From Prorocentrum cordatum (Eukaryota), in assembly GCA_963575745.1 (NCBI GenBank), contig CAUYUJ010000300.1, positions 1 through 64,000 on the forward strand: a stretch of DNA of 64,000 nucleotides, given 5' to 3'. The position numbers and the translations under genes are program-made. The notes under the pieces are model-generated. The model made no database searches and had not been told where the DNA came from. It saw only the letters and a program-made list of their open reading frames with translations. Positions 1-23,100 of this stretch are shown piece by piece (the first letter of the stretch is position 1; each line of letters begins with the position of its first letter).

Positions 1-789
1 TCCTCCTCCTTCTCCCCCTCCTGCTCTTGCTCCTCCTCCTGCTTCTACTCCTGCATCTCCTCCTTTGATGCTGCTCCTCTTCCCCTGCCCCTCCTCCTCC
101 TCCTCCTCCTCCTCCTCCTCCTCCTCCTCCTCCTCCGTGGCGGGCCAGGTGGCGCGTGCCCGCCCCCCCGGCCGCAGGGGGCGCGCGCTGTGGCGCGCCT
201 CCGCCGCGGGGGGCGGGGCGGGGGGATGAATTCTCGGGGCGGGGCCCCAGAGAGGGGGGCTCCTCCTCCTCCTCCTCCTCCTCCTCCTCCTCCTCCTCCT
301 CCTCCTCCTCCTCCTCCACCCCTTCTCTTGGGGGGGGGGGGGGGGGCGAATTCTCGAGGCGGGGCCCCAGGGGTCCGGGCCTCGTGAGGGAGCTTGCGGC
401 GGGCGCGGCGGGCGCGGCGGGAGTGGCGAACAGCGACGGGCCTTGAGCGGCTCTGCCCTTGCTCCTGCTGCTCCGCCCGGTGCGGGATTTTCCACGCTCT
501 CCTCGTCGTCCTCCTCCGCCACCTCCCTCGTCACCCACTCAGCCTTGCTTCGAGCCATGCCACTTATCCTCGTGCTCCTCTTGTGCTGCACCCCTCCCAG
601 ACCCCACCTGCATCATCACAAGCCCTGTTTCCTTCTGCTCCTTCCTCCATGCCCCTTTCTTGCTCCTCGCTCCTCGCTCTTCCCTCCTCCCCACCCCTAC
701 CCTGCTGACCTCATTTCATTGTTTCGGTTCTTCCAGATCGAACCGCGTTCTCGACGCGACGATGTCGGCTGTGGCCGTGCTTTTCTATG

Positions 790-8109: not shown

Positions 8110-9007
8110 TTAAACTCGCGTGCTCTCGCCCGTGAGTGAATGCCCCTGGTCTCGGCACCCCGCGCAGGCGACGCGCCCGAGGCAGGGTGGGCCAGCGGCC
8201 TCAGCTCACGGCGCTTCTACTAGCCGTTCTCCAGCGCTGGCTGACGGAGATTCTGCAGCACCATCTTGCGAGCACGCCTGATGTGCTCGTCGACCCGCTC
8301 CTCGCGGCAGGGCTGCGCCGTGCCGAGCTGCGCCGAGCCAGCACCGCCGCCGTCGGCCACCGCCAGGGCCTCCTGGCCTGCCGAGGAGGCGTGGGCCGCC
8401 GCCGCCACCGCGGCCCCGCCGCGGGGCGCGGCCGCTCCTCCACCGTCGCCGAGGGGCTGGGTGGCGCTCATGCCCTTGTCCTTGCCCACCGACGCGGGCG
8501 CGCCCGCGCGGCTCGTGCGCCGCCCCGCGCTGGACGGCGGGCGGCTCGGCTGCGCAGGCACAGCTCGTCCGCCCAGCTGTCGTCCTCCATCATGGCCTCG
8601 GCGACCTCCTCGCCCTCCACGTCCATTTCCTTCGTCTCTGCAGCAGTGGCTCCTCGCCGACGTCGACCGCGCCGTCGCCTCCGCCGCGGCGCCGCGGCGC
8701 CAGGCGGCAGGCCACCCGCGGGATCATCAGGGGCTCGATCATGCTCGGCGTCAGGGGGACGATGAGGAGCAGCAGCACGGCGTCGCGAAGCCTCCAGCTC
8801 CGCCGCCGCCGCCCTGCACAGGCCCTCGGCGGCGCGCAACATGCGGCAAGCCGCAGGCGCTCCGGGGGCCAGCCCCGCCGCCGAATGGGCCGCCGACGTG
8901 GCACCTCGGGCGGCCGCGATTGCAGCGCGGGGATCAGCAGCCGGCATCACCCGAACCGAGGCGGGCGGCGCGGCCCGGCGACACCAGGTTCGAGCGAAAT
9001 GGTTACT
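8110..9007 (-). mobile_element. Retrocopy headed by a degenerate DinoSL, encoding an Ala/Arg-rich protein (family shared with 28440-29238)
   Basis: The minus strand begins TAGTAACCATTTCGCTCGAA (degenerate SL). The ORF reads MPAADPRAAIAAARGATSAAHSAAGLA...RMLRAAEGLCRAAAAEL. (GAG)n tracts flank both sides. Confidence 0.55.
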
Positions 9008-10905
9008 AGGAGGAGAGGAGGGGAGGAGGGGAGGAGGAGGGGAGGAGGGGAGGAGGAGGAGGGGAGGAGGAGGAGGAGAGGAGGAGGAGGAGGAGGACCC
9101 GCCCGACCTGCCGCTGGGGTCGTCGCTGCGCGACTCCACGCCGGAGGGCCGAGAGACCTCCGGGCCGCGCGCGGGGAGGCGGCGCGTCGGGAAGGGGTGG
9201 CCTCGAGGCGCGCGCCTGGCCAGCCGCCGCTTGCTACGGTAGTGAGGGGCAACGATCGGGGGGGACTGGCACAGGGGGGATGTCTCTCCTCCTCCTCTCC
9301 TCCTCCTCCTCCTCCTCCCCTCCTCTCTTCCTCCTTCCTCCTCCTCCTCCTCCTCCTCCTCCTCCTCCTCCTCCTCCTCCTCCTCCTCCTCTCCTATCTT
9401 CATCCTCCTCCTCCCCTCCTCCTCCCTCCCCCCTCCCCCTCCCCATCCTCATCTCCTCCTCCTCCCCTCTCCTCCTCCTCCTCCTCACCTCCTCCTCCTC
9501 CTCCTCCTCCTCCTGCTCGCCCTGCGCCTCCTCCCCCCTCCTCCTCCCATGCGGGGCAACGATAGAGGGGGACTGGCCTAGGGGTGGACACATCGACCTG
9601 GAATCGGCGATACATCGCCGATAGATCGGCGATAGGCCTCCGATAGCGAATCCGCACCTTCCTGGGCAGGTTGGGGCTGTCGGGCCCCTATCGGCGATCA
9701 ATGGGCGCTATGGGGTCGATGCATCCCACCCTATGCCTGTCCCCCCCTATCGTTGCCCCCGAAGTCGGGGCCCGACCACAAGGAACCTTGCGCAAGAAAC
9801 CCAACCCAGAGACTCCGGAGACCCCAGGACGTCCATAGAGATGTTTGGTGTGGGAACACGTCGCGCTGTCCATCGCACAGCCATCGAAGCCTAGGAAGCC
9901 CAGGGCACCCTGGAGGCAAGCAGGGTGCTTCTTGGCATGGATCCCCGCTGTATGCCCGGGCCTGCCCCTGGGGAGGCAGGGCTTCCGCCGGCGGAGGCAG
10001 CCCTCGTTTGGCTTCCGCCGCCCTTCTGCCAAGGAAGAGACGACAAAATTCCTTCGGCCCTTGATAGCGAGGCTTTTCCTTGAGTGCCTCACGTGTTGCT
10101 CCCCCCTTGGGGAAAACAAGAAGGTACCGATGCCGCTGCTCCCGTGACGTCTGCCGGGGTGCGCTCCGACCATAAATCTCGAGGCGACCTCAGCCGTGGC
10201 GACGAGAGGCAGCAGCACGTGGACCCTGCCCCTTCGTACCAGATTTCTGCAGAAGCGGCTGGGGCGCAGAGAGGTCTGCGGAGGCCTGCAGCCAGGTGAG
10301 CCCCGGCGGGGGTGTCCGATACCCCAGGAGCCAAATGGATCCGCAGGGGCAGCCTTCGCCACCGGTCGCAGAGACGAGGGCCTCGGAAGACCAGAAATGC
10401 GAAACCGAGTAGATGGGGTCGAAGGATCGCGCCGCATCGCCAATACATCGCCGATGCATCGTCGATGCATCGGCGACCTCGGCGATGCATCGGTGCCGTC
10501 GGCGTGGTGAACCACGGCCTCGGCATCGGCGATGCGTCGCCGATGCGGCGATGCGGCGCGATCCTCCGACCCCAGCTGCTCGGACCCCATCTGGGAGGCC
10601 CAGAGTTAAGCAGGGACCGACCGTCCCGGCATTCCTATAGTCCTACCACGAAGTGTACTTAGAACCCCAAACTGTTCTAACAGCAAAAACCATATTCTTA
10701 GAACATAAGCCCGATGTGAGAAAACAAAACAATCTCCGCCAGGTGGAAGCCACGAGAGGTTCTCAGAACATTTCGTGGGAACCACGACAGGTTCTTAGGA
10801 CATTGCTTGGCAGGGCTATAGGCGAGCCAGGATGCTTCGCCACCGCTTGACAGAAGGCAGCGGCACCCGTGCCTCTGAGCCTGCCCCAGGGTCTGCCCCC
10901 CCTTG

Positions 10906-11286
10906 GGGGCCACATGCGAGCCCTACCCCTACCCCCCGCGATTTCGGAGGGGGAGGGTGGGGTTTCCTTCGCTCGGGAGCTCCCGGGCGAAGCGAGCCCC
11001 ATCTAAGGAACCCTAAATAAGGAACGAGGCCCCTGTTCCCATACATTAAACTTCGGTATCCCTTGGAAAAAATACGGAAAACCTCAGGCACAGCGTAAAG
11101 CAACCAAGGAACACGGAGCCCCTCCCCAACGAAAAGGGCTCCTTCTTCAGGGCCCCGCCTGCACCTCCCCCGATTTCGGAGGGGGAGGGTGGGGTTCCCT
11201 TCGCTCGGGAGCTCCCGGGCGAAGTGAACCCCACCCACCCCCTCCGAAATCGTGGGGGGGTAGGGGTAGGGCTCGCATGTGGCCCC
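10906..11286. mobile_element. Long-TIR MITE-like element containing a nested repeat (about 11003-11157)
   Basis: Inverted repeat of about 55 bp: 'ggggccacatgcgagccctacccctacccccc..gatttcggaggggg' / 'cccctccgaaatc..ggggggtaggggtagggctcgcatgtggcccc'. Confidence 0.7.
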
Positions 11287-11686
11287 CTTCATACGGATGC
11301 AAGGGCCTTGGACGCCCAGTTCGAAGCTTCTCGAGCGGGGCGCGGCCCGCGAGAGCGGCGAAGGGTGGACCGAGGAGGCAAGGATGCAAGGGTACCCTTG
11401 GGAAGGCTGCCCATCCTTACTATGCGGGTTGACTGTACTAGAGACGTTGCTGGCTACACGCAAGCTTTTTTTGGCAAACGAAGCCACAAACCACGGAGCG
11501 CAGATCCCCCTCCCCTCGCGGGGGCTGCAGGCGACCCCTTGATACAGGCACGCTGCAACGCCAAAGCAGGCATGCGCAGTATCGGCCGGCCGGGTAAACG
11601 TCGCCGGGCTCCAAGGGGAGGAGGGAGAAACGGGAGGGGTCTTTCTTTGAAGAGGCCCTGGGACACACAAATAAATACACACAAAT

Positions 11687-12003
11687 GTGTGCAGGCGGGG
11701 GTCAGAGCGGTAGCTCATAGGGAATAGAGGGGAGCCGCAACATGCAATGATCACTCACACTGGGCGTTGCCCCTTCTTACTCCCTCTACTCGTTGGCCAA
11801 AGCTGTTGACAGAGCTTCGAGTGCCTCGAGACAACGGCACCAGCATGTGCGAGCCACAGGGCCCGCCCCGAGGCAACGGCAGAATTCGCACCTCGAGTGC
11901 ACCACCGTCGTGCAACGACCGGGGTCAGAACGCCGCCCCAAGCGGGCCTCGAGGGGGAGCAGACTCGCACCACGCTCTGCCCAGAAGCCCGAGAAGAAGA
12001 AGC
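11687..12003 (-). repeat. Split direct repeat B2 (3' end of element)
   Basis: About 317 bp, differing from 12176-12492 by roughly 9 substitutions counted by eye. Confidence 0.95.
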
Positions 12004-12090
12004 GAAGCTCTCGCGAGACGTTGAACGGGCAAGAGCGGCCAGGCAGAGAAGGAGCCTGGACGGCATGGCACAGGGCGGACTGCGGGCGGG

Positions 12091-12173
12091 CCACAAAGGC
12101 TGCCATGCATTCTGATGCGGCCAACGTTCGCTCATTACCCCTCCGCCCACACATTGACCGTAAACGTGTTCAT
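12091..12173 (-). repeat. Split direct repeat A2
   Basis: 83 bp identical to 19748-19830 (ccacaaaggctgcc...aaacgtgttcat). Confidence 0.95.
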
Positions 12174-12175
12174 GT

Positions 12176-12492
12176 GTGTGCAGGCGGGGGTCAGAGCGGT
12201 AGCTCATAGGGAATAAAGGGGAGCCACAACATGCAATGATCACTCACACTGGGCGTTGCCCCTTCTTACTCCCTCTATTCGTTGGCCAAAGCTGTTGACA
12301 GAGCTTCGAGTGCCTCGAGACAACGGCACCAGCATGTGCGAGCCACAGGGCTCGCCCCGAGGCCACGGCAGAATTCGCACCTCGAGCGCACCACCGTCGT
12401 GCAACGACCGGGGTCAGAACGCCGTCCCAAGAGGGCCTCGAGGGGGAGCAGACTCGCACCACGCTGTGCCCAGAAGCCCGAGAAGAAGAAGC
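12176..12492 (-). repeat. Split direct repeat B1
   Basis: Direct copy of 11687-12003, abutting A2 through 'ttcAT-gt-gtgtgcagg'. Confidence 0.95.
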
Positions 12493-12565
12493 TCTCCACT
12501 CCAAGAACACCCAAAAGCTCTCCAATGTGTTCCGACATGTGGCCGAAGGCCGCCCATAACATTCT

Positions 12566-13340
12566 TCAGAGTCGCACCTGGCCTGGATTTGAGGCCCCTT
12601 GCAACAGTATGCCCGAGCGCGGGCAATCAAGGTCCTGAGAAAGACTGGAGCGAGGAACGGGTGGCGGCAGAAAACGCAAGTCGGCCAAAAATCGCGGCCC
12701 CACCTGAATGTAAATCTTGCTGTCTTTATGAGCTCCAATGACCTCGGAGCACACTTTAGGCAAGTCGCCTGTCAGCAAGTATTCATGCGTAGCACCGCCT
12801 CTGCGCATGCACAGACTAGGCCGAGATGCGCGCGCCCGAATCTCGCAGGCCAGTGCGAACAAGCAAATGAAAGGCGCGAGGAGACGAGGGCCATGAACGC
12901 CCGTCACGATGCAGCTGCATACGGATGACCGCTCCCTCAAGTGGGTCACCTAGTGTCATCGTCTCTCGTGCCCCCTTTTTGACAGGCTGTCCTTGTCTAT
13001 GTCAACGACATTGTGTTCTGCCGCAAGGCTAGAGCTGAAATCGCGCGCGCCAGAGTACTGCTGGCGCGTCCTCAACAGGTGCTGCACCAAACCCAGTGTA
13101 ACGTTAGCGTGGCTCCTGGTGGCACCCTTGGCCCACAGCAAGGTAAACTTGTAATGCGACATCCGTGTCTCCCCGTTGAACGGCAACGGCAGATTCATGG
13201 CGTTAAGATGGCCGACGAACTGCTGGCTGCTCGACGGAATCTAGCAAGAGCGGCAGCGCCGATCTGGGCATCTTGCAGCTTCCCCAGGCCAGCTCTGGCC
13301 GTGCGCCTGTCGGCGGGGCTAGACCGCTTCCCCTTCCTTC
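12566..13340 (-). pseudogene. Tyrosine recombinase of the retrotransposon, frameshifted and probably internally deleted
   Basis: N-terminal RRTARAGLGKLQDAQIGAAALARFRRA and LWAKGATRSHANVTLGLVQHLL. C-terminal box 'LCMRRGGATHEYLLTGDLPKVC' at about 12755-12820 (compare HSLRRGGAT). 'RGHWSS/IKTAR/IYIQ' with the catalytic Tyr is spread over frames at about 12700-12748. Confidence 0.75.
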
Positions 13341-16300
13341 AGGCGCGACGGCGCGTCCGCGGGGTTCCGAGCAGATGAGGTGAACCCGAATGCTGCCCGC
13401 GCGCCCATCGCCAGCTCCCAGGCCGAGAAGCTGCGCACAACCTTGTTGAGCTGACTGCTGCTTGAGCGGCGCTTTGAGAGCGCACCGATGTTGACCATGC
13501 TGTCGAGGAGGTGCAAGAAGACTCGCTGCTGTCGGCCCAACGATCGAGCACGCCATCGAATCATCATCAGCGCGCCCTGGCACTCCAGTACATTGATATG
13601 TTCAGGAACATCCCACGCCAGCTGTCCTGCCTCACGCCATTGCCAAAGACCTGCATCAATCTCTTGCCGAGGGAAAACTTTGCTGAGCTCCGCAGAGCTC
13701 CCGTCGCCACGGAGGTCCGCACCATTGCTGTGGCACGCCATCACAAGGCCCATCACCAGCCTACGCGAGACATCCGCATCACGCCAGGACGTAGCATCGC
13801 GTTTGGCCAGCTCTGCAAGCAGCACATCTGCATGACATGCTGCGGACTGACAGTGGCAGACCAGCTTGGCACCGCGCAGGTCCTCCAGGCGGCGAAGCAG
13901 CTCGGGCTGCTTGCGCAGCCATCCAGCAAACAGCGCCACCGGGTCCTCGCAGGAGCAGCTCGGGCCCACTGCGAACGGGTTGCCGAAACACGACGGGGTG
14001 AGGCCCCAGCGCCATGAGCCGCGGCCGACGTAGACGAGCCTGTTGGCCGCCGCCGGCGCCGCTGCGGCGGGTTCCTCGCCCGCCTGCTGCCGCTCGGCCG
14101 GTGCGGCTGCGCTGCAGGCCACCAGCTCGTCGCGGACCTCCGCGTCGACCTCCACGCGGCTGCGTCGCAGCGAGGTGGCGTCGCCAGCCCGCAGCTTCCG
14201 CCCGCCAGCCCAGGCCCGAGCGCTCTCGCGCAGCTCGGAGAAGGGCGGCGCCGCCACCAGCAGCCCAGCCGCAACAGCCCAGTGCGCCAGCAGCCACGCC
14301 ACCACCTCGCACTGGAACGAGTTGCCGATCAGCGAACGCCTCAGCCCCTCGTACTTGCTGGGCTCGGCATTCGCCGCACTGCTGGTCATGCAGGGCACGG
14401 TGTGGCCTTCGGCGAAGCCCATCAGCTTCTCCCTCATCGCCGCGTCAGGAGGCGCGATCCGTCCGTCAGGCCAGTGAATGCACCACCTGTCACGGAACTG
14501 GCATGGCGGCGCCGCAAAGGCCGCCTCCTCCCAGCGCGTCAGCTCAGCAGCCGTGCACTCCCCGATGCCCGCGGGCCTGGGGCGCGGCTGCGTGCGCGGC
14601 GTCCAGCGAACGAACGTAGGGAGGGGCTCGCCACCCTCCGCTCCAGGGCCGCGCGCGCCAGCCGGCAGCCACTCCTCGAGCGGCGGGCGCTCCACCTCCA
14701 GCGACACGCGGCGCAGGCGGCGAGAGGCGCCGTCCTTGGTCAGTACCATCACCGTCTTAGCTTCGTACGACGGCAGCAGGTCCCAGGACGGCCAGTAGAG
14801 ACGAGGACGCCTCACCCAGCCAATGTCCCCAGCCTCAACCTCCAAAGGGATCCGCTCGAACAACCCGCTGAGGAGGTGAAGGGCGTCGGACTCTGCCATT
14901 GATGCCACATTTTCCCCAAGGAAGTCAACGCTCACCTCGGGCATGGCCGCCCGCAGGCCTCGGATGACCCTCACCATGTGATCGACAAGCGAGGCGCGCG
15001 AGTCCGACGAGCCCTTGCGGTCGACGTTCAAGCTCGTGTAGATCTGGCATGGGAAGCCGCCGATGACCACCACGCGGGTGATGCGGCCACGGGCCCGCAG
15101 CAGACCAGCCAGGGCAGCAGGGTCAGCAAATGTAACATCTCCGAGGTGCTGCGTGCCAGGGTAAGCGCGCCGCGCGACGCGAACCGCCTGCGGGTCCACC
15201 TCGAACGACAGGTGCGCCGCTGGTACCAGGCCCAGTATCTCGAAGGCTCGGCGTCCGCCACCGATACCATCAAAGACGGTGATCAGGGCGGTCTCCTCCT
15301 CGCAGGCGGCGTTGGCGGGCCGCTGGCGCCTGCCCGCAACGACGCGGCCGCGCTCGGTAAGCGCCGTGCTGTGCACCGCGGCCCCAGCGGCCTCCGACGC
15401 GTCCGACGCCGTCACCAGGTGATCGACATCAAGCGTCATGTCGGCCACGCAGAGCCCCGACAGGGCTAGGCGCATCAGCAAGTCCTCGATCACGCTCACG
15501 CTGAAGCGGCCTCCACAGCGCGGGTCGTTGAGCCACTTCCAGGTGTAAGCGAAGCTCGCGGCCAGCGGGCGGCGGGAGCAGTGCACGCGAGCCCAGCGCC
15601 CAAGAAGAATACGTATCAATTGCATGCTGGCTCGCCTCTTGCCCAGAACCCAGAGCGTGAGGCTGGCCATCTCATTGATGTATCCTGCAGGCGGCCGACG
15701 GACACCCTCAACAAGCTCGCCCAGAGTGGTGGCGCGCACCACGCGGTGCAGGTCCTTGCCCGGGGGGCCAGGGGACCCTGCTGCCTCGTAGCAGACTCGA
15801 GCGTCAGTCAGCAGCTCGGGGACCGTCCCGCGTAACTTGTCGGCCTCAGATTTGTCGACGATCTCGGCGATCTCTAAGTTATCGATGTACGCCATCCAAG
15901 CAGGCGGGCAGGGCTTCTCCGCGCCAAGCGGCAGGCGGCGGCGCCGGGTAATCTCGCAGCTGGGGCTCAGGCCGCGAGGCACCGCGCCGCTGCGGCGCGG
16001 CATGTTGCGATGCAGGTGAGTCGTGACCCCCGCCGCGCTGATCCAGCCCATGCCGATTACCCGCAGGCAGATGTGGGTAGCGCCGCCGTCCTTGAGGCCC
16101 AGTAGGCGCGACGGCACGGGCGGCCCGATCACCATGTGCGGCCACCGCGGCGGCGGTGCACGGAAGACGTAGAAGAAGGCCTTCCTGTCGGCACCGCTCC
16201 ACAGCAAGTCCTCGGACTCCGTCAAGACCAGGCCGTTCAGCTGGCTCATCGTCGGCATCTCGGGCGTGTCGCCAACGATGCACTCCTGGCAGGCGTTCGA

Positions 16301-16342
16301 CGGGATCAGATTGGTGATGAGCCTGAGCACGGGCATCACCAT
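13319..16342 (-). CDS. Open 1007-aa part of Pol: reverse transcriptase, RNase H (N), C5 DNA methyltransferase, DUF4326-like, RNase H (C)
   Basis: RT: LRLITNL, SGADRKAFFYVF, VIGMGWISA, YIDNL. RNase H: VTASDASEAAGA ... HINVLE ... LLDSMV ... NPADAPSR. DNMT: VFDGIGGG, SFEVD, LGDV, GGFPCQ, GENVASM, RRPRLYW, REKLMGF, LIGNSF. DUF4326: YVGR..FGNPF..LVCHC..CHADVL. Confidence 0.9.
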   Translation of the reverse strand: MVMPVLRLITNLIPSNACQECIVGDTPEMPTMSQLNGLVLTESEDLLWSGADRKAFFYVFRAPPPRWPHMVIGPPVPSRLLGLKDGGATHICLRVIGMGWISAAGVTTHLHRNMPRRSGAVPRGLSPSCEITRRRRLPLGAEKPCPPAWMAYIDNLEIAEIVDKSEADKLRGTVPELLTDARVCYEAAGSPGPPGKDLHRVVRATTLGELVEGVRRPPAGYINEMASLTLWVLGKRRASMQLIRILLGRWARVHCSRRPLAASFAYTWKWLNDPRCGGRFSVSVIEDLLMRLALSGLCVADMTLDVDHLVTASDASEAAGAAVHSTALTERGRVVAGRRQRPANAACEEETALITVFDGIGGGRRAFEILGLVPAAHLSFEVDPQAVRVARRAYPGTQHLGDVTFADPAALAGLLRARGRITRVVVIGGFPCQIYTSLNVDRKGSSDSRASLVDHMVRVIRGLRAAMPEVSVDFLGENVASMAESDALHLLSGLFERIPLEVEAGDIGWVRRPRLYWPSWDLLPSYEAKTVMVLTKDGASRRLRRVSLEVERPPLEEWLPAGARGPGAEGGEPLPTFVRWTPRTQPRPRPAGIGECTAAELTRWEEAAFAAPPCQFRDRWCIHWPDGRIAPPDAAMREKLMGFAEGHTVPCMTSSAANAEPSKYEGLRRSLIGNSFQCEVVAWLLAHWAVAAGLLVAAPPFSELRESARAWAGGRKLRAGDATSLRRSRVEVDAEVRDELVACSAAAPAERQQAGEEPAAAAPAAANRLVYVGRGSWRWGLTPSCFGNPFAVGPSCSCEDPVALFAGWLRKQPELLRRLEDLRGAKLVCHCQSAACHADVLLAELAKRDATSWRDADVSRRLVMGLVMACHSNGADLRGDGSSAELSKVFPRQEIDAGLWQWREAGQLAWDVPEHINVLECQGALMMIRWRARSLGRQQRVFLHLLDSMVNIGALSKRRSSSSQLNKVVRSFSAWELAMGARAAFGFTSSARNPADAPSRLKEGEAV
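13805..14040 (-). other. DUF4326-like domain within Pol
   Basis: LVYVGRGSWRWGLTPSCFGNPFAVG...LEDLRGAKLVCHCQSAACHADVLLAEL matches the YIGR/WGNPF/L.GK.L.CWC/CHGDVL pattern as recalled. Confidence 0.8.
14285..15290 (-). other. C5-cytosine DNA methyltransferase domain within Pol
   Basis: Motif I FDGIGG, motif IV GFPCQ (catalytic Cys), motif VI ENV, motif VIII RxRLYW, motif IX (REKLMGF) and motif X GNS, all in order and in frame. Confidence 0.92.
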
Positions 16343-17914
16343 CCCGTCCTGGCACTAGACAGGGGCGTCGTGGGCCTTCGGAACGCCGAAGGCTCCGATC
16401 AGCAGCGGCGACCCATCCCGGCACGCGATGTCAGACGCGGAGATCGGGCCGACCATCCCGCGCTCATGAAGGGCCCCAGCATTGCGATGCCACTCGTCTT
16501 CCGGGGCCCAAACCCGCGCCGAAGTCGGCGCCGCGCGGCGCAGCGCAGGCGGCAGCAGCACCAGCCCAGGGTCCAGCAATGCGTCCCGCACGAAGCCCGT
16601 CGCGACGTCGGCCGCCTCAATCGAGGCCGCAACACCAGGCGGCGGTAAGCCGTCCAGCACCTGCTCCAGGGTCAGCTTGTGAGGCGCGGTGATCTCGGCG
16701 CCACCGTAGCCGATCTTGCGGTCCTTCAGGCGGTCCTCCCAGTTGAGCTCCGCAGGCAGGCTGGTCTCGATGCGCGTCGCCAGGTACAGGCGGCGCCCAG
16801 GGCCGCCAAGGCTGCCCGCTGAGCAGCGTTCGGGCGCCTGCGGCAATGGCGCGCGAACTCCAGCGAGCGAAAGCCTGCGTCCCAGTTGAGCGCCAGCACC
16901 GTGACAACCAGCCTGCAGTGGAATGCCTCCCAGTTCAGGTCGCTAAGGTCGTCGCCGTCGCGCACGACGTCGGTCTTCACGATGGTAGGGTACGGTAACG
17001 GCAGCAAGTCACGTTGCAGCCGACCTCCCATGGTGGCCATATGCTCGCGCAGCTGAGGTTTGAGGGGGTCGCGGACGTAGCGACCGAACGAACCGGGGAA
17101 GTCCCTGACGAGGTTGAGCAAGATCGGGCCCACCCCATAGGGCTCATGGAGCAAATCACCAGCAGCGCCAGCAAGTTCTCTCCAGTCCTCCAGAGGATCG
17201 TGTCGAGGAAAATCATCATCAGCGGTGGGAGATGGCGATCCCAGAGGGGCAGCAGCGCAGTGGTCAGGTAGCGAACGAGACGGCGAGGCCCCAGGCGGTC
17301 CGCGCGGCGCAGCAGCCTGCAGAGGAGCGGCCGCTGCAGCCCGGGCGTCAGCAGCAGGGGCATCGTCACCATGCGCTCTCACCGCGCCGCCGCCGGGGGG
17401 CCAGCCCTGCGGCCGCCAGGCGGGCGGGGCCGCGAGCCGTTGGCTCTCCCTGCGTTGCGTCCCCTGCCGCCGCGGCGTCTCGGGCGACCGCGCCCTGCTC
17501 CCTGGGGCGCCGCCGCCGCCGCTGCTGGCTCGTCCTGCCTGAAGGTGTGGCGCTCGGGGCTCCCCGCCAGCACAACTCGGCGCGGGTGAGGGCTGTCCCC
17601 TCGGGGGGTCCGCTCCGCCTGAGGGGGCGGCGCCCGCGCGCGGGGGCCTCGGGGCGCTGCGGCGGGCCCCTCCTCGGCCCGAGGCGCTGCGGCTGGCGAC
17701 CCTGGAGCGCGAGCGGGGCTGCCCCCTCGGAGCGGGAAGTAGCGGAACCGTCCGCGGCCTCGACCCTTGCCCTTCCCGCGCGAGAGTTCCCGCGCTGGCT
17801 GAGGCGCGGGTCGAGAGGGGGAGCGCGGCCGTTGGCCCTCCCGCGCCCCCCCCTCGGGTCACCCGCGCCCCTGGCCGCGGCCGAACGCCCCGAAGGCTCC
17901 GCGGCTCTTGGCAT
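16343..17914 (-). pseudogene. 5' part of Pol, broken by frameshifts and an in-frame TAG at 16355-16357
   Basis: ATG at 17914 overlaps the gag stop. Pieces RDLLPLPYP..VLALNW..PNAAQRAAL, IGYGGAEITAPHKLTLEQVLDGLPP and LLIGAFGVPK lead in frame into the RT ORF across one stop codon. Confidence 0.75.
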
Positions 17915-19451
17915 CCTCCAAGCGCCTCCGCAGCAGCGCCGAGCGCCGCGCCAGATCCTGCCCGTCCATCGACGCCTGCGACGGCCTCACGTCTGGGACA
18001 ATCTCGAACTCGCTCGCAACCTGCCAGCCCGCGTCCGACAGAGAGAGCTCTAGCGCCTTGAACCTCTGCGTCAACACGTCGCTCAACTGCGGCAGAGCGC
18101 CGCTCTCCAACTGGTCCAGCGCTGTCGCCAAGGTCTGGGGCTCGCGCACCGTGTTGATCCGCAGCTGGGACACGGGGTGGTGGCCGAACACGATGGCCTG
18201 CAAGTAGCCGACCACCTTCGGCGTCGTCTCGGAACCGTCCGCCCCCTCCCGCAGGCCCATGACGCAGGCGATGTTCTGCATCGCCTCGTCGTAGAGCGCG
18301 CCAGGCTGTCTCTCCGCCAGCAGCCGTGCGCTGCCGCCGCGGGAGGGGGCATCTCGAAAACGCGGCTCGCCTTCGCCGTCGCTGCGGCTGCCGGACTCGC
18401 TGCGAGCCCGTCGCCTGCCGCGGCCAGCCACGCCGCGGCCGCCGCCGCCTCCGACCGCAAGCGCGCGGGCAGCTGCTGCGGCTGCCGGGCGGTCGGCGGC
18501 GGGCCCGCCAGGGATGGGAGCGGGGCCGCCTCGACCAGCTCCACCACCACGGCCGCCGAAGGCGCTCGGCCGCACCCAAGGCTCCACCAGGCCGCGCGTC
18601 GAGCGCAGCCGAAGCCACTCCACGTGCAGGACGGCCCGCCCTGCCTGCGCAGGCTCGCCACACCGCGCGGGCCCCTGCGCGCAGAGGTGCAGCAGCCCAG
18701 CAGGACCGCCGCCGCGCGGATGGAAGGCGCCGTCAAAGCGCATCGCCTCAGCAGGCAGGGGCGCGCCTCTGAACTGCGCGCTCAGGTACTGGCCTCCAGC
18801 ACCGGGCGCGCCGACCTCGTCGATCTCGAACAGTGCGGTCCCACTGATCGCCCCCGCCACGTCGTGGGTCGGCAGCTCGACGGCCAGGCCCTGGCGCCAG
18901 TTGGCCCCGACGAGGGCGGCTGCCTGCGTCCAGGCCCCGTCGACGAGCCCGCCAAGCTGCACTCCTGCAGCTGGGGCGACCGCGCCTCCCAACACGCCGA
19001 GGGCAGCGCCCGGTCCTGCGGGCCCCGCGCCAGGCGGCGCGCCCGCGCCTCCAGCTCCGCCAGCGCTAGCAGCGGCCAGCGCGCCAAGCAGCGCCACTCC
19101 GACGCCGCCCCCGCCGCCGCCGCCAGCGCCGTCGCCAGGCGCCCCGAGGGCAGGGGGGGGCGCGCCTGCGGCGCCCGCGCCAAGGGCTCCAGGCAAGCCA
19201 GGGAAGCCGCCGAGCCCGGGCACCACTGGCGCACCAGCCGCGCCGCCTCCAGCGCCTCCGCCAGCCGCACCTCCAGCCGCGGGCGCGAGGCCGCTTCCGA
19301 GGCCGGCGGGCGCACCTGCCGCTCCAGCTGCCGCGCCTGCGCGCCCGCGACCGCGCCGTCCTCCGCCATGTCCAGCGCCTCGGCCGCGGGCGGCAGCGGG
19401 AAGCACAGGAAGAGCCTTCGCCTTCGCCTTGGCCTTGGCCTTAGGCGGCAT
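17859..19451 (-). CDS. Gag-like ORF1 of the YR retrotransposon
   Basis: Open frame from ATG (MPPKAKAKAKAKA), Gly/Ala-rich N-terminus, a CAQGPARC..H motif and a helical C-terminus (TLATALDQL..SDVLTQRFKALE..WQVASEFEIVP). It lies directly upstream of pol. Confidence 0.7.
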   Translation of the reverse strand: MPPKAKAKAKAKALPVLPAAARGRGAGHGGGRRGRGRAGAAAGAAGAPAGLGSGLAPAAGGAAGGGAGGGAAGAPVVPGLGGFPGLPGALGAGAAGAPPPALGAPGDGAGGGGGGGVGVALLGALAAASAGGAGGAGAPPGAGPAGPGAALGVLGGAVAPAAGVQLGGLVDGAWTQAAALVGANWRQGLAVELPTHDVAGAISGTALFEIDEVGAPGAGGQYLSAQFRGAPLPAEAMRFDGAFHPRGGGPAGLLHLCAQGPARCGEPAQAGRAVLHVEWLRLRSTRGLVEPWVRPSAFGGRGGGAGRGGPAPIPGGPAADRPAAAAAARALAVGGGGGRGVAGRGRRRARSESGSRSDGEGEPRFRDAPSRGGSARLLAERQPGALYDEAMQNIACVMGLREGADGSETTPKVVGYLQAIVFGHHPVSQLRINTVREPQTLATALDQLESGALPQLSDVLTQRFKALELSLSDAGWQVASEFEIVPDVRPSQASMDGQDLARRSALLRRRLEDAKSRGAFGAFGRGQGRG

Positions 19452-19725
19452 CGGGCGACAAGGTCGACAGAGCCGTGATCTGCGCCGCCAACAGCCGCGC
19501 CTGCTCAGCGAGCAGCGCCCGCTCCTGCGGTGCCAGCCGCGCCTCGCGCGCCCCCTGCCGCGCCAGCGCGAGGAGGTAGCACAACTCGCACACCTCCAGG
19601 AGCGCGCCGCCCTCCGCGAGGGCCAGACTCTCGCCCTCGGCGAGCCGCCCGGTGCACCAGCCGCAGATCCGAGGCTGCTGGGCACGCGGGGCAGCAAAGC
19701 GCGCGGTGGCGCAAGCAGGGAGCAT
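19441..19725 (-). CDS. Small upstream ORF (94 aa) with two CxxC pairs, putative zinc-binding
   Basis: ATG 22 nt downstream of A1, motifs CGWC ... CELC, and a TAA overlapping the start of gag. Confidence 0.45.
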   Translation of the reverse strand: MLPACATARFAAPRAQQPRICGWCTGRLAEGESLALAEGGALLEVCELCYLLALARQGAREARLAPQERALLAEQARLLAAQITALSTLSPDAA

Positions 19726-19747
19726 CCCAGGCCCTCAAGGCCCTGAT

Positions 19748-19830
19748 CCACAAAGGCTGCCATGCATTCTGATGCGGCCAACGTTCGCTCATTACCCCTC
19801 CGCCCACACATTGACCGTAAACGTGTTCAT
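19748..19830 (-). repeat. Split direct repeat A1 (5' end of element)
   Basis: Identical to 12091-12173. Confidence 0.95.
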
Positions 19831-20153: not shown

Positions 20154-23100
20154 AGGGGGGAAACAAGCCTACCTCGCTTTTGACCACCCTCGCTTCCAAG
20201 AGATACCAAACGATGCCAAACTGCAGCCTGGACTGGTCAGGCCGCTTGACGAGGAGGCGCGTGGTATGGCTTGGTTTTTCCTGGAAGCGAAAGCGGGGTA
20301 GGTAATTCACGCTCTGACTCTTTTCCGCCCCCGAACGTAAGAACGACCCTGGACAGGCGGGATCTGTCGTGCGCGACTTTCGCGGGGGCCGCGGGGAGGC
20401 CGACTCCGAAGCGCGCAGGCCGCCGCCGCCGCGTCGCATCCGGGCCACAGGGGGGGGCCCGTGTGCCCGCAGAGGAGGAGGAGGAAGAGGAGAAGAAGCA
20501 GATGGAGGAAGAGGAGGAGGAGGAGGAGGAGGCGGAGGAGGAGGAGAAAGACGAGGCAGAGGAGGAGAGGGAGGAGACGAACGATGAGGAGGAGGAGAAC
20601 GAGGAGCACCAGGGGTCACTCCAGCGAAAGGTCGCTCTTACGTATACAATTGAAGTAGGAAGGCGCTTGAAGTAGATCGGGATCGCAGAATTCTCACCAC
20701 GAATTCCCTATTCGGCCACATTCCCTATTCAGCCACGCGCCCATGGACAATGAATGACCGTTCGGCCCCCTCACTCCGACTAATACTTTCAACGACCAGC
20801 GTGTACGTATAGCCGGCAATGGACCACTTCACTAGGGCCGGTTTTGCGCCCTGAGCTGTTTACGGCCCCGAAGCCCGGAGAGGGCCCCCAGAGGCCCAAA
20901 ACGGCCAAACACACTTCAAAACAAACTGCGAAAAACGGCCGAAAGCGGCCCAAAATGCTCCAATTTTGTTCGGAGCGTCCCCCTCCCCCCCCGCGAAGGG
21001 CAGCGCTGGTTGCAAATCCACGCGCCTTGATCCATGTTTGCGATTCCTTGCAATCCTTGCTCCTCCCCCCAACCCCCCACCCCCCACCCCGGAGGAGGAA
21101 GAGGAGGAGGAGGAGGCGGAGGAGGAGGAGGAGGACGAGGAGGAGGAGGAGGAGGAGGAGGAGGAGGAGGGGAGGGGAGGAGGAGGAGGAGGGGGAGGAG
21201 GGGGAGGAGGAGGAGGGGAGGAGGAGGAGGCGGAGGAGGAGGAGGAGGAGGAGGAGGAGGAGGAGGAGGAGGAGGAGGAGGAGGGAGGAGGAGGAGGAGG
21301 AGGAGGACCCCTCCATCAGCGCCTGCCCTCCCGAGGGCCAGAGCGAACGGCGGCGGCGGCCGAGGGCCTGCGACGCCCGCGCGCGGCCGAGCTGCGGCTG
21401 CGAGGCCGGGCGGCCAAGGGACGGCCGCCCGGGCGCCAACGGCCAGGTGGAGCACCCGTCCGCCGCGCCGGCGGCGGCGGGCGGGGCCGCCAGCGAGGCC
21501 CGCGAGGACTCGCGGCTCGGGGCGGCCCGGGAGCTGCCCGCCGCGTCCTCTGGAGGGGCAGGCCTCAGGGCCCAGGTCCTCCTCCGCCTCCTGCTCCTCC
21601 TCCTGCTCCTCCTCCTTCTCCTCCTCAACCTTCTTCTCCTCCTCCTCCTCCTCCTCCTCCTCCTCCTCCTCCTCCTTCTCCTTCCTGTGGGCCTGCAGCT
21701 GTCCGAATGCTGCTGTACGCCCTCAGCTGTGGCTCCCTGGTGAGGCCCTTGCGCGGACTCTTGATCCGATCCGATCCGATCCTCCTCCTCCTCCTCGTCC
21801 TCCTCCTCGTCCTCCTCCTCGTCCTCCTCCTCGTCGTCCTCCTCCTCCTCCTCCTCCTCCTCCTCCTCCTCCTCCCTCTCCTCCTCCCCCAAACGGGGAG
21901 GCGTACGATGCGCGACAAGGATGCAGGCCCCTTGGACTCCCGTGCTGAAGCTTTTTCGAAAGCGACGGGCCATCGAAAGTAGTCTAGGATGGACCAAGGA
22001 GGCACGGATGCACGGATGCAAGGGTACCCTCGGGAAGGTTACCCATTCTTACCATCGCTTTCGACTGTACGGCAATCGTGCTACCATAGGGAGCGCAAAA
22101 CAGGGAACGAAGGGGCGTCTCTGCCCACGGCGTGCCCAGGACACAACAGGTTCCGCGACAGACATCTAAGGAACGGTCCGAAAACCAAAGCCCGTGCCAA
22201 ACCCAAAGCGGTCCTTAATTTCAGCGTCTTGACTGCACGGCAGGTTCGCGTCGTGCCGACACCAGCGATGGCTCCTGACACCGCGGGGATCGTTCAAGCT
22301 TGAACGGTCGGCGGATCGCCAGATCGAGGAGGAGGAGGAGGAGGAAGGAGGAGGAGGAGGAGGAAGGAGGAGGACGAGGAGGAGGAAGGAGGAGGAGGAG
22401 GACGAGGAGGACGAGGAGGACGAGGAGGAAAAAGGAGGAGGAGGAGGAGGAGGGAGGAGGAGGAGAAGGAGGAGGAAGGAGGAGGACGAGGAGGTTCCAC
22501 ATCGACCGATTCTGGGCCACTGGCGGCGTTCTGCCTCGAGCGCCCGCAGCGGTGGTCGCCGCCGCGATGGCACGGCACGACCTTCCTCCAGCACGGTCGG
22601 GGCAAGGCCTCAACGAGCGCGTGGTTCTGTTGGCGCGGCACTGCTGCTGTGTCGAGCTCGCCGGGAGACGCAGACGTGTCAAGCTGCAGCCGACGGTCAA
22701 AGGACCATGGCAGGGAATAGCAGCCGCCACAAAAGAAGAGTTCGGCGCATTCCGAGATCATGCGAATGAGCTCGAGCGCGCGCAAGCGTACACCCTGCGA
22801 AATGCTTAAGAAATCATGGGTTAAGAAATTCATAGTCTCAGAAATTGAATAAAACCCAGAACTTCTATCAACATCTGGGGATTTACATTGAAAAGTTAAG
22901 AATAATCGAGATTCTGGACGAAAACTTAGGTTTTCTTAAGCATCGCCTAAGGTGTAGAGTAGTTTTGTCCAGCTGTGCAACGTTACGGTTGGGCGACGCT
23001 GCGGCATCGTAGCCGCGGCCAGAGCGCAAACCGACAGCCCAGGCCCTTTCTCCGGAGGCCTCTGGCCGCAGACAAGGCACCCCTGACGAGGAGCACTCCG

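What the first reader, a model, noticed from the sequence alone, without database searches (positions are those of the whole stretch)
13805..14040. DUF4326-like Cys/His domain as cargo of a eukaryotic retroelement
Seen: the YVGR-x9-FGNPF...CHC...CHADVL motif is intact and in frame right after the DNMT. Established: DUF4326 is functionally uncharacterised and, to my recollection, mostly found in bacteria, phages and large DNA viruses. Inference: retention next to a DNMT and RT suggests a role in nucleic-acid modification or binding (dinoflagellate DNA is rich in 5-hydroxymethyluracil), and possibly capture from a virus or bacterium.
Basis: partly seen in the sequence, partly recalled or inferred. 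Interest (0 to 1): 0.75.

Follow-up and report, generated by a model that had tools for sequence, protein, structure and literature searches.

The report
DUF4326 domain inside dinoflagellate retrotransposon polymerase
A small enzyme-like domain otherwise known mainly from phages, giant viruses and bacteria is a conserved built-in part of the replication protein of a DNA-methylase-carrying jumping gene in the dinoflagellate Prorocentrum cordatum, although the copy in this window is itself a dead one.

Summary
Window 13817-14041 (minus strand) encodes a DUF4326 domain (Pfam E 5e-14). It is in frame in a 1011-codon Pol frame, about 70 residues after a Dnmt3-like C5 methylase.

The host is an 8.1-kb DIRS-type retrotransposon (A-coding-B-A-B repeats, 11686-19830) of Prorocentrum cordatum. 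This is the DNMT-DIRS kind described by de Mendoza et al. 2018.

New here:
- DUF4326 is present in every P. cordatum paralogue model that reaches that region.
- It is as conserved as RT and DNMT and much more than its linkers.
- It occurs at a second, different Pol position in a sister lineage (P0017, P0107).
- It is absent from 12 more distant DNMT-DIRS Pols.
- The DNMT plus DUF4326 block is nested inside the RNase H fold.

This copy is decayed. It has a TAG in RT and a broken recombinase. A nearly invariant Arg is replaced by Cys, and one residue is deleted from the Cys loop.

Function is inferred only. The most likely role is a Cys-dependent sugar-phosphate or nucleic-acid-end processing module (RapZ-C/DUF488/DUF4326 clade). 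Capture from a sampled virus is not supported: the element's CHC-x5-CH subtype is rare in viral contigs.

The scan's 8 shown earlier notes on DUF4326 were all on phage DNA, none on a eukaryotic retroelement.

Verdict: new variant of a known kind, moderate interest.

The parts
11686..19830 (-). Whole DIRS-type retrotransposon copy, about 8.1 kb, with layout A - coding - B - A - B read on the minus strand
   Evidence: Repeats. Homology of the interior to P. cordatum Gag/Pol/YR models. The layout matches the SymbioDIRS-Dnmt3 description in PMC5890265 (section 6).
19748..19830 (-). Terminal repeat A, 5' copy
   Evidence: 83 nt, 100% identical to 12091-12173.
12091..12173 (-). Repeat A, internal 3' copy, lying between the two B copies
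12175..12492 (-). Repeat B, first copy
   Evidence: 318 nt, 97.2% identical to 11686-12003.
11686..12003 (-). Repeat B, second (terminal) copy
17868..19671 (-). Gag-like upstream coding region, in other frames and with no Pfam match
   Evidence: tblastn of the N-terminal parts of P0010 and P0033, 51-66% identity. Pfam found no family.
16355..16357 (-). In-frame TAG stop that interrupts RT. The public gene model P0003 skips it with a small predicted intron.
15455..16942 (-). Divergent reverse-transcriptase region (FGVPK and YIDN motifs read by eye), split by the TAG
   Evidence: Homology to the Pol family. Only one relative, P0031, gives a sub-threshold RVT_1 match (E 0.0044). PMC5890265 states that these RTs are divergent.
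15320..15427 (-). RNase H N-terminal part (strands 1-2, DAS catalytic motif)
   Evidence: Model me35d0615249c has strands at 20-24 and 28-37. RNase H1 chain 4e19_A aligns with Z 15.0, 124 of 133 residues, rmsd 2.7, model range 15..714.
14255..15316 (-). Dnmt3-like C5 cytosine methyltransferase domain, with motifs FDGIGG, GFPCQ, ENV and GNS present
   Evidence: Pfam PF00145. Best structural matches are DNMT3B 6u8p_A at Z 27.7 (278 aligned, rmsd 3.0) and DNMT3A 4u7t_C at Z 26.3. Motifs read.
14042..14254 (-). Low-complexity linker 1 (Ala/Glu/Arg-rich)
   Evidence: pLDDT under 50 at model residues 416-480. Identity to paralogues is 27-59% where RT and DNMT show 43-81%.
13817..14041 (-). DUF4326 domain, the finding itself
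   Evidence: Pfam E 5.4e-14. 2485 relatives at E<=1e-3 among 1.84 billion representatives. AF2 core pLDDT above 90.
13832..13858 (-). Cys loop CHCQSAACH (aa 833-841): strand end, then loop, then helix start. This is the candidate active site. One residue is deleted in this copy.
   Evidence: C91 and C96 are invariant and C89 and H97 are at least 90% conserved in 81 sequences. Secondary structure E85-88 and H97-109. 3-base insertion in other copies behind 13850.
13949..13951 (-). Codon for Cys802, at the position of the family's nearly invariant Arg. This is a private change of this copy.
   Evidence: Arg is kept in P0004, P0005, P0006, P0007, P0008, P0009, P0015 and P0032.
13670..13816 (-). 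Linker 2
   Evidence: pLDDT under 50 at model residues 558-565 and 580-600. Low identity to paralogues.
13328..13669 (-). RNase H C-terminal part (strand 3, helix A with NVLE, LDS motif, NPADAPSR)
   Evidence: Motifs read.
12633..13240 (-). Broken remnant of the tyrosine recombinase ORF
   Evidence: About 43% identity to the C-terminal extensions of P0005, P0009 and P0015, which carry the SLRRGGAT and GRW...KIY recombinase motifs. Only short stop-bounded frames survive.

Best explanation
The segment encodes a genuine DUF4326 domain that is a selected, built-in module of the Pol polyprotein of a DNMT-bearing DIRS-type retrotransposon family of Prorocentrum cordatum. Together with a Dnmt3-like methylase it sits on flexible linkers as a nested insertion inside the RNase H fold (shown).

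Across the family its Cys-x-Cys...Cys-His-x-Asp loop is kept, and the domain is as conserved as RT and DNMT. I therefore read it as catalytic (inferred).

The most likely mechanism (inferred; about 1 in 3 on its own) is as follows. As a member of the RapZ-C/DUF488/DUF4326 branch of the rhodanese-phosphatase-like superfamily, it uses the loop cysteine at the end of a beta strand to bind and process a sugar-linked phosphate. In this setting that would be a phosphate at a terminus of the element's RNA/cDNA replication intermediates, for example preparing ends before the circle-forming and recombinase steps of DIRS replication. It would act in cis with RT, RNase H and DNMT.

The particular copy in the window is a dead relic and probably makes no active protein.
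For: Domain and context:
- Pfam hit.
- DIRS repeat layout.
- The window's protein is identical to a Prorocentrum cordatum model that UniRef names 'DUF4326 domain-containing protein'.
- DNMT3B/3A matches at Z 27.7/26.3, and an RNase H1 match at Z 15.0 that spans model residues 15..714 across the insert.

Retention across the family:
- 14 of 29 Pol relatives have the domain.
- The 15 without it are 3 gene models that end before it (P0011, P0014, P0020) and 12 distant Pols of 27-33% identity. Of those 12, 10 align on both sides of the site with only 22-83 residues between.

Conservation:
- Identity to the window copy for RT / DNMT / DUF4326 against the two linkers is 43/43/44 against 27/28% for P0016, 57/58/65 against 38/30% for P0013, and 62/65/65 against 45/47% for P0010.
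- C89, C91 and C96 are each Cys in 16 of the 17 rows that cover the loop, and H97 is His in 13 of 17. All the exceptions lie in the degenerate rows P0035, P0021, P0042 and P0013.

Second placement:
- P0017 (unnamed source) and P0107 (P. cordatum) have RT_N-DUF4326-RT_C...DNMT.
- A single origin of all 14 retroelement domains is not rejected. The AU p is 0.725, and the constrained tree scores 18 lnL units above the free search.

Fold and clade:
- The AF2 core has pLDDT above 90, with strand 85-88, Cys loop 89-96 and helix 97-109.
- Weak Foldseek rows are dominated by Cys phosphatases (DUSP/MKP5, PRL, RNA 5'-phosphatases; TM 0.25-0.34, E>=0.3).
- RapZ-C scores Z 3.8.
- DUF488-N3a is the second family hit, by 6 of 81 members at E<=0.1. 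P0039 passes the DUF488 cut-offs.

Nucleic-acid context elsewhere: among 43 relatives scanned there are fusions to DnaB/AAA_25 (2), DUF5131 (2) and a DNA pol beta thumb (1), against SLOG (2).

Literature: predictions read as passages in PMC9503650 and PMC7824862.

Decay of this copy.
Against: - No activity of any DUF4326 protein has been shown.
- No structural match reaches significance. Foldseek gives no E<=0.001. The best VIA Z is 4.2, to NADAR/YbiA rather than to a phosphatase.
- dN/dS could not be computed, so purifying selection rests on protein identity alone.
- A subclade (P0010, P0012, P0013, P0033, P0034) has lost the family's Arg58 and changed GNPF to GNPC/GNPR. Either these residues are not essential or that subclade has a changed or lost activity.
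- 12 distant DNMT-DIRS Pols do without the domain, so it is not required for this type of element.
- The published prediction favours ADP-ribose-derived substrates as much as DNA ends.
- In the 716-residue model the DUF4326 part has only pLDDT 50-59, so nothing can be said about contacts with DNMT.
- One X1 contig skips 13668-14002, so some copies may lack the domain.
Confidence: 0.55

Rival explanations
1. Counter-defence or signal-erasing module. The domain removes phosphate from ADP-ribose-derived molecules, or reverses an ADP-ribose-type mark, as proposed for viral DUF4326. It would protect the retroelement's cDNA or its replication from a host NAD+-based response.
For: - Published prediction read in PMC9503650.
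- Fusions to SLOG in 2 of 43 relatives (P0094, P0116).
- The top VIA rows are NADAR/YbiA enzymes, one with bound ADP-ribose: Z 4.2 (rmsd 5.0, 93 aligned) and Z 4.0 (rmsd 4.6, 79 aligned).
- A preprint notes DUF4326 fused to SLOG-like anti-Avs homologues in amoeba viruses.
Against: - No Macro, NADAR, SLOG or ART domain is present anywhere in this Pol.
- The partners here are RT, RNase H and DNMT, all of which act on nucleic acid.
- The Z scores are below 5 and tie with unrelated rows.
- No NAD+-based anti-retroelement immunity was examined or is known to me in dinoflagellates.
Confidence: 0.15
2. Non-catalytic accessory. The Cys/His cluster binds zinc, and the domain only binds nucleic acid or tethers or targets the DNMT and RNase H on cDNA.
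For: - Four clustered potential ligands (C89, C91, C96, H97) are the best conserved positions.
- The putative phosphate-binding Arg58 and the Phe of GNPF are dispensable in one subclade.
- The loop length varies between x4 and x5.
Against: - The relatives DUF488 and RapZ-C do not share the full Cys set, yet they share the region.
- The strand-loop-helix position of the cysteines is that of Cys-phosphatase and rhodanese active sites (comparison from general knowledge).
- C96 and H97 are adjacent, which is awkward for binding one metal (inference).
- Metal binding was not tested here.
Confidence: 0.15
3. Neutral passenger. The domain was captured once and is merely carried along or decaying, with no role in the element.
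For: - This copy carries private changes at conserved sites, and the element is dead.
- Several fragments (P0021, P0035, P0042) have lost the cysteines.
- The distant clade lacks the domain.
Against: - The domain is kept in every P. cordatum model that reaches it, down to 49% overall identity, and in P0016 at 42%.
- Its identity equals that of RT and DNMT and exceeds the flanking linkers by 15-35 points.
- It is also kept at a different Pol position in a second lineage.
Confidence: 0.1

Closest known systems
SymbioDIRS-Dnmt3 retrotransposons of Symbiodinium (de Mendoza et al. 2018, PMC5890265; section 6, term searches of the main text and of 3 supplementary text files read)
   Same: - DIRS-type element with A-coding-B-A-B repeats.
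- Dnmt3-like DNMT inside the Pol ORF, with a separate tyrosine recombinase ORF.
- Two coexisting Pol domain orders.
- Divergent RT.
   Different: - Here the host is Prorocentrum cordatum, and the Pol carries an extra DUF4326 domain.
- The paper's main text has 0 occurrences of 'DUF', and its 3 supplementary text files have none of 'DUF4326', 'PF14216' or 'DUF'. Its figures could not be seen.
- The 12 distant DNMT-DIRS Pols that lack the domain may be of that type, but their organisms are unnamed.
Stand-alone and fused DUF4326 proteins of phages and giant viruses (for example the 'T4 NrdA.1-like protein' of Burkholderia phage BcepNazgul; jumbo-phage and NCLDV fusions, PMC7824862 and PMC9503650)
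   Same: - Same Pfam family and same conserved G-R, GNPF and C-x-C...C-H-x-D motifs.
- 33-47% identity to the window domain.
   Different: - Viral and bacterial forms mostly have a C-x-C-x4-C-H loop, usually CWC/CFC: 77 of the 80 best viral-contig relatives.
- The retroelement forms have CHC-x5-CH.
- The viral partners are SLOG, Macro, NADAR, helicases and R-M genes, not RT or RNase H.
RapZ C-terminal domain and DUF488 (the RapZ-C-DUF488-DUF4326 clade of Burroughs and Aravind 2023, NAR Genom Bioinform lqad029). The paper is not held. Its title was seen in a reference list; its content is recalled.
   Same: - Weak structural likeness to RapZ-C: 5o5s_A, Z 3.8, rmsd 4.2, 77 aligned.
- Sub-threshold to threshold Pfam cross-hits to DUF488 and DUF488-N3a over the Cys-loop region.
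   Different: - No significant sequence or fold match of the window domain itself.
- RapZ-C is an RNA- and sugar-phosphate-binding adaptor rather than a proven enzyme (recalled).
Dam-like adenine methyltransferase domain of classical DIRS elements, and other captured Pol domains (chromodomain, extra RNase H)
   Same: Retroelement Pol polyproteins repeatedly acquire accessory nucleic-acid-related domains (discussion passage of PMC5890265).
   Different: DUF4326 is unrelated in fold to these. Within the searches made here it has not been reported in a retroelement (9 papers hold 'DUF4326', and none is on dinoflagellates or retroelements by title and abstract start; passages were read in 3 of them).

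Membership tests
DUF4326 (Pfam PF14216) | Profile match above the curated gathering score | tested here: met
   53.1 bits against a cut-off of 25, E 5.4e-14, profile positions 11-81 of 82. The domain alone scores 57.9 bits.
DUF4326 (Pfam PF14216) | Conserved residues G-R, G-N-P-F, Arg58, and C-x-C-(x4/5)-C-H-x-D | tested here: inconclusive
   Of the 16 invariant or nearly invariant columns other than the start Met, this copy keeps 14. It has Cys at Arg58 and Ser at Pro93, and lacks one loop residue relative to its paralogues. The family-level motif is met in the paralogues.
Rhodanese-phosphatase superfamily, RapZ-C/DUF488/DUF4326 clade | Alpha/beta core with the conserved Cys at the end of a strand, followed by a loop and a helix | tested here: inconclusive
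   The AF2 model shows strand 85-88, Cys loop 89-96 and helix 97-109. No fold match is significant: Foldseek E>=0.3, with Cys phosphatases filling the weak list; RapZ-C scores Z 3.8 and ties with unrelated rows.
Rhodanese-phosphatase superfamily, RapZ-C/DUF488/DUF4326 clade | Detectable sequence link to DUF488 | tested here: inconclusive
   The window domain itself gives no DUF488 hit. 6 of 81 aligned relatives hit DUF488-N3a at E<=0.1. P0039 passes the cut-offs: 28.2 bits against 27, and 23.6 against 22.2.
Rhodanese-phosphatase superfamily | Phosphate- or thio-transfer catalysis through the cysteine | not testable with these tools
   Needs an enzyme assay.
DIRS-type retrotransposon | Split terminal repeats in the order A - coding - B - A - B | tested here: met
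   A is 83 nt at 100% identity. B is 318 nt at 97.2% identity. The order is correct on the minus strand.
DIRS-type retrotransposon | Tyrosine recombinase instead of a DDE integrase | tested here: met
   The paralogue extensions carry recombinase motifs. The window has a broken remnant of about 43% identity at 12633-13240. The motif names are recalled, and Pfam gave no match.
DIRS-type retrotransposon | Reverse transcriptase and RNase H in Pol | tested here: met
   RNase H fold at Z 15.0, with 124 of 133 residues aligned. RT rests on family homology and eye-read motifs only. Pfam RVT_1 is not matched by P0001 and is sub-threshold in P0031.
SymbioDIRS-Dnmt3-like elements | Dnmt3-type C5 methylase inside the Pol ORF | tested here: met
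   PF00145 at E 3.5e-7. The best structural matches are DNMT3B (Z 27.7) and DNMT3A (Z 26.3), ahead of bacterial methylases at Z 23.5 or lower.
NADAR (YbiA-like) | NADAR fold and motifs | tested here: inconclusive
   Top VIA rows are 2b3w at Z 4.2 (rmsd 5.0, 93 aligned) and 8bau at Z 4.0 (rmsd 4.6, 79 aligned). No Pfam NADAR match.

The most novel reading that the evidence does not exclude
The Pol of this retroelement family carries two DNA-dressing enzymes. The Dnmt3-like methylase and DUF4326 would act together on freshly made cDNA so that it acquires the host's chromatin chemistry. DUF4326 would perform phosphate chemistry on a modified base or DNA end, for instance in the 5-hydroxymethyluracil pathway that marks dinoflagellate DNA. 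That would make DUF4326 a DNA-modification enzyme rather than an ADP-ribose signal eraser. It would also give the first functional handle on a family with thousands of phage and giant-virus members.
Probability: 0.08. Interest if true: 0.85.

Novelty: new variant of a known kind. Interest (0 to 1): 0.5.

Why it matters
DUF4326 is a large, untested family: 2485 cluster representatives at E<=1e-3 and 306 phage records. Its predicted role rests on viral domain fusions.

A eukaryotic retroelement that keeps the domain covalently joined to RT, RNase H and a de novo DNMT, at two different positions, narrows the likely substrate to nucleic acid. It also offers a simple genetic system for testing it.

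For transposon biology it shows two things. DNMT-DIRS elements of dinoflagellates acquired a second accessory enzyme. An RNase H fold can tolerate a nested insert of about 550 residues.

If the domain proves essential for DIRS replication, it would identify a missing end-processing step of that poorly understood cycle.

Tried and rejected
- **Own genome:** none is held, so there is no genome-wide census.
- **dN/dS:** not possible. With A3 it matched 171 stretches, but none was a relative. Read laying showed only 40 of 784 variant places, too few for a codon-position test.
- **Expression:** no RNA holder was listed.
- **Sequence search of PDB chains with the A1 profile:** 4 chance-level rows, E>=0.18.
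- **Foldseek against PDB:** no match at E<=0.001.
- **VIA wide search for the small model:** no Z>=5.
- **Viral and prokaryote scans:** A4 then worked on viral contigs. P0040 alone found no relative in prokaryote genomes.
- **Naming the organisms of the x5-loop relatives:** 20 proteins were looked up. Only P0107 (P. cordatum), P0099 and the P0036 cluster (both 'hypothetical protein') carry any name. A length-matched word search gave 10 unnamed hits.
- **ESM Atlas:** only phage-dominated DUF4326 clusters.
- **AU test on the 194-row tree:** did not finish in two runs. It was replaced by a 61-row subset of 14 retroelement rows, 22 chosen near rows and 25 random others. Near-duplicates P0009, P0032, P0034, P0035 and P0178-P0181 were left out.
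- **P0080:** a 2176-aa hit that is a repeat-protein false positive without DUF4326. It was dropped from the trees.
- **Burroughs and Aravind 2023:** could not be read.
Full report
**1. Observation**

The finding's coordinates lie on the minus strand inside a stop-free frame, 13319..16354, of 1011 codons (P0001).
- Pfam matches DUF4326 (PF14216) at aa 772-846, which is window 13817-14041. The match has E 5.4e-14 and 53.1 bits against a gathering score of 25.
- Pfam also matches DNA_methylase (PF00145) at aa 358-495 in the same frame.
- The excised domain scores E 1.7e-15.
- The motif string is present as YVGR-x11-FGNPF...CHC...CHADVL. The spacing is 11, not 9.
- There is only one copy in the window (tblastn).

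**2. What surrounds it**

*Element layout.* Read on the minus strand, the locus is A (19830-19748), then coding, then B (12492-12175), then A (12173-12091), then B (12003-11686). The A copies are 83 nt and 100% identical. The B copies are 318 nt and 97.2% identical. This is the DIRS arrangement that de Mendoza et al. 2018 give for SymbioDIRS-Dnmt3 (PMC5890265, section 6).

*Host organism.* The protein is 100% identical to an NCBI 'unnamed protein product [Prorocentrum cordatum]', which UniRef names 'DUF4326 domain-containing protein' (P0003).

*Other coding regions.*
- Upstream frames match the Gag-like N-termini of paralogues.
- Downstream, 12633-13240 is a broken remnant, about 43% identical, of the tyrosine recombinase seen in the paralogue extensions.
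- An in-frame TAG at 16355-16357 cuts RT. The public gene model removes nine codons around it as an intron.

*Structure of the Pol C-terminal part.* A 716-residue AlphaFold model of aa 296-1011 (pLDDT 74) was compared with 48,161 PDB chains.
- Model residues 52-405 match DNMT3B (Z 27.7, 278 aligned, rmsd 3.0) and DNMT3A (Z 26.3).
- RNase H1 chains align over model range 15..714. The best is 4e19_A: Z 15.0, 124 of 133 residues, rmsd 2.7.
- So the RNase H fold is built from about 35 residues before the DNMT and about 115 residues after DUF4326. The DNMT-linker-DUF4326-linker block of about 550 residues is nested between RNase H strands 2 and 3.
- Both linkers have pLDDT under 50.

**3. Is the domain kept?**

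*Presence and absence.* The region search found 29 Pol relatives.
- 11 match PF14216 by Pfam.
- A profile of 81 DUF4326 proteins adds P0006 and P0007, which are models that end inside the domain, and the degenerate P0021. That makes 14 of 29.
- Of the other 15, three models end before the domain (P0011, P0014, P0020).
- The remaining 12 are distant Pols (27-33% identity, unnamed sources) with no trace of the domain even at E 10.
- 10 of those 12 align on both sides of the site, with only 22-83 residues in between where P0001 has 142-207.

*Conservation.* Identity to the window copy by segment, as RT / DNMT / DUF4326 against linker 1 / linker 2:

| Relative | RT | DNMT | DUF4326 | Linker 1 | Linker 2 |
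|---|---|---|---|---|---|
| P0005 | 81 | 74 | 62 | 56 | 69 |
| P0010 | 62 | 65 | 65 | 45 | 47 |
| P0013 | 57 | 58 | 65 | 38 | 30 |
| P0016 | 43 | 43 | 44 | 27 | 28 |

In the more distant comparisons the domain tracks the enzymatic domains rather than the linkers. This is indirect evidence for purifying selection. dN/dS could not be computed.

*Conserved sites.* Among the 17 rows that cover the loop, C89, C91 and C96 are each Cys in 16, and H97 is His in 13. The exceptions are the degenerate rows P0035, P0021, P0042 and P0013. The family's Arg58 and the Phe of GNPF are replaced in one subclade: P0010, P0012, P0013, P0033, P0034 and P0042.

**4. A second position**

- P0017 (unnamed) has DUF4326 at 502-578, before the DNMT at 805-936.
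- By BLASTP the domain sits between the equivalents of P0001 aa 143 and 152, just before the YIDN motif.
- P0107, a partial P. cordatum protein (name), is 47% identical to P0017 over 623 residues and has the same order. A weak DNMT hit follows the domain.
- So both architectures exist in P. cordatum. This echoes the 'two distinct structures' noted for Symbiodinium.

**5. Origin**

*Size of the family.* The domain has 2485 relatives at E<=1e-3, 74 at E<=1e-10 and 3 at E<=1e-30 among 1.84 billion representatives. It also matches 306 phage records at under 60% identity, including a 'T4 NrdA.1-like protein'.

*Trees.*
- In a 194-row tree the P. cordatum retroelement domains form one supported group (16 rows, SH-aLRT 97). 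P0016 and P0017 are unresolved.
- On a 61-row subset, a tree holding all 14 retroelement rows together was 18 lnL units better than the free search, with p-AU 0.725.
- One acquisition followed by rearrangement is therefore compatible with the data. It is not proven, because the alignment has only 94 columns.

*Loop signature.*
- 142 of 195 domains have C-x-C-x4-C-H.
- 45 have x5, nearly all reading CHC. These include every retroelement copy and a set of unnamed metagenomic proteins, several with tandem DUF4326 domains.
- Of the 80 best viral-contig relatives, taken from 147 confirmed, 77 are x4, 2 are x5 (both CWC) and 1 has no motif.
- The source was therefore probably not one of the sampled viral types. 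A protist host gene or an unsampled virus remain open.

**6. This copy**

Relative to its paralogues it differs at several points.
- It has Cys for the nearly invariant Arg (aa 802).
- It has W781 and T786 where other copies have R and A.
- It has a 3-base deletion in the Cys loop. Two X1 contigs insert CTG behind 13850.

With the TAG in RT, the broken recombinase and 2.8% divergence between the B repeats, it is a dead copy. Run X1 gave 315 contigs at 80% identity or more: 41 at 99% or more, 78 at 95-99%, 77 at 90-95% and 119 below 90%. This points to a multi-copy family of mixed age. One contig skips 13668-14002.

**7. Mechanism**

*What is shown.* The small AlphaFold model has a confident core (pLDDT above 90 for residues 28-110) in which strand 85-88 leads into the Cys loop 89-96 and then helix 97-109.

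*What is weak.*
- Foldseek finds nothing significant. Its weak list is dominated by Cys-dependent dual-specificity, PRL and RNA 5'-phosphatases, with E 0.3-1.4 and TM 0.25-0.34.
- The VIA search tops out at Z 4.2 for NADAR/YbiA and Z 3.8 for RapZ-C.
- Pfam cross-hits link relatives to DUF488-N3a: 6 of 81 at E<=0.1, and P0039 is above the cut-offs.

[quoted passage not shown] It predicts processing of terminal phosphates on ribose in ADP-ribose derivatives, and notes fusions to DNA-replication and R-M components (passages read). Its 2023 paper, which I recall as defining a RapZ-C-DUF488-DUF4326 clade with predicted DNA-end processing, could not be read.

*Fusions among relatives.* Among 43 relatives scanned:
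- 2 are fused to DnaB/AAA_25.
- 2 are fused to DUF5131.
- 1 is fused to a DNA pol beta thumb.
- 1 is fused to an HTH domain.
- 2 are fused to SLOG.
- 8 have tandem DUF4326 domains.

*Inference.* Every covalent partner here acts on nucleic acid. The best-supported reading is therefore a cysteine-dependent phosphate-processing module acting on RNA/cDNA termini during DIRS replication. I give the specific mechanism about one chance in three. The broader claim, that it is a selected Pol module, I put at about 0.8.

**8. Comparison and novelty**

- DNMT-bearing DIRS elements are known (PMC5890265). Automatic databases already label these proteins 'DUF4326 domain-containing'.
- I found no paper that describes the domain in a retroelement. 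The full-text search for 'DUF4326' gave 9 papers, all on viruses or phages by title and abstract start.
- The de Mendoza main text and its 3 supplementary text files hold no 'DUF'. Their figures and the 2023 Aravind paper could not be checked.
- The scan's earlier notes hold 130 mentions of DUF4326. The 8 shown are all on phage DNA.

Verdict: a new variant of a known kind, of moderate interest.

Noticed in passing
window 13328-15427 (-): The RNase H fold of the Pol is split. Strands 1-2 lie before the DNMT, and the rest lies about 550 residues later, after DUF4326. In the model the two parts assemble into one RNase H domain (Z 15.0 to RNase H1, model range 15..714). So the DNMT plus DUF4326 block is a nested insertion.
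   Followed up: yes
window 16355-16357 (-) and P0003: The public gene model for this locus removes nine codons around an in-frame TAG as a predicted intron. This makes a dead retrotransposon copy look like an intact 1316-aa protein.
   Followed up: yes
P0017 and P0107 (no window coordinates): A sister lineage of DNMT-DIRS Pols carries DUF4326 at another place, inside the RT region just before the YIDN motif and upstream of the DNMT. P0107 is from P. cordatum.
   Followed up: partly
window 7800-9600 and 20450-22480: Long purine-rich (GGA/GAG)n arrays and their complement flank the element region on both sides. Some are in inverted orientation, for example 9397-9547 against 21157-21307 at 74% complementarity.
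   Followed up: no
window 12983-13378 (+): A 131-aa frame antisense to the recombinase remnant contains 'LVYVNDIVF', which resembles an RT YxDD box. It may be chance.
   Followed up: no
window 10920-11259: Short local repeats just outside the element. 82 nt at 10920-11001 and 11152-11233 are 88% identical. There is a 96-nt palindromic match at 11164-11259.
   Followed up: no
window 13668-14002, run X1: One contig joins 13668 to 14002 with 7 other letters between. This would be a family copy lacking most of DUF4326 (table 5). It is a single contig with a 36-letter side.
   Followed up: no
phage records: 141 of the 306 phage records with a DUF4326 match are Escherichia phages. One Burkholderia phage annotates the gene as 'T4 NrdA.1-like'. 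The small T4-type gene beside the ribonucleotide reductase genes therefore appears to belong to this family.
   Followed up: no
P0036-P0039, P0041, P0045, P0048, P0103: Eight unnamed metagenomic proteins carry two or three tandem DUF4326 domains. Several are of the same CHC-x5-CH subtype as the retroelement, and two are about 1200 aa long with no other Pfam domain.
   Followed up: partly
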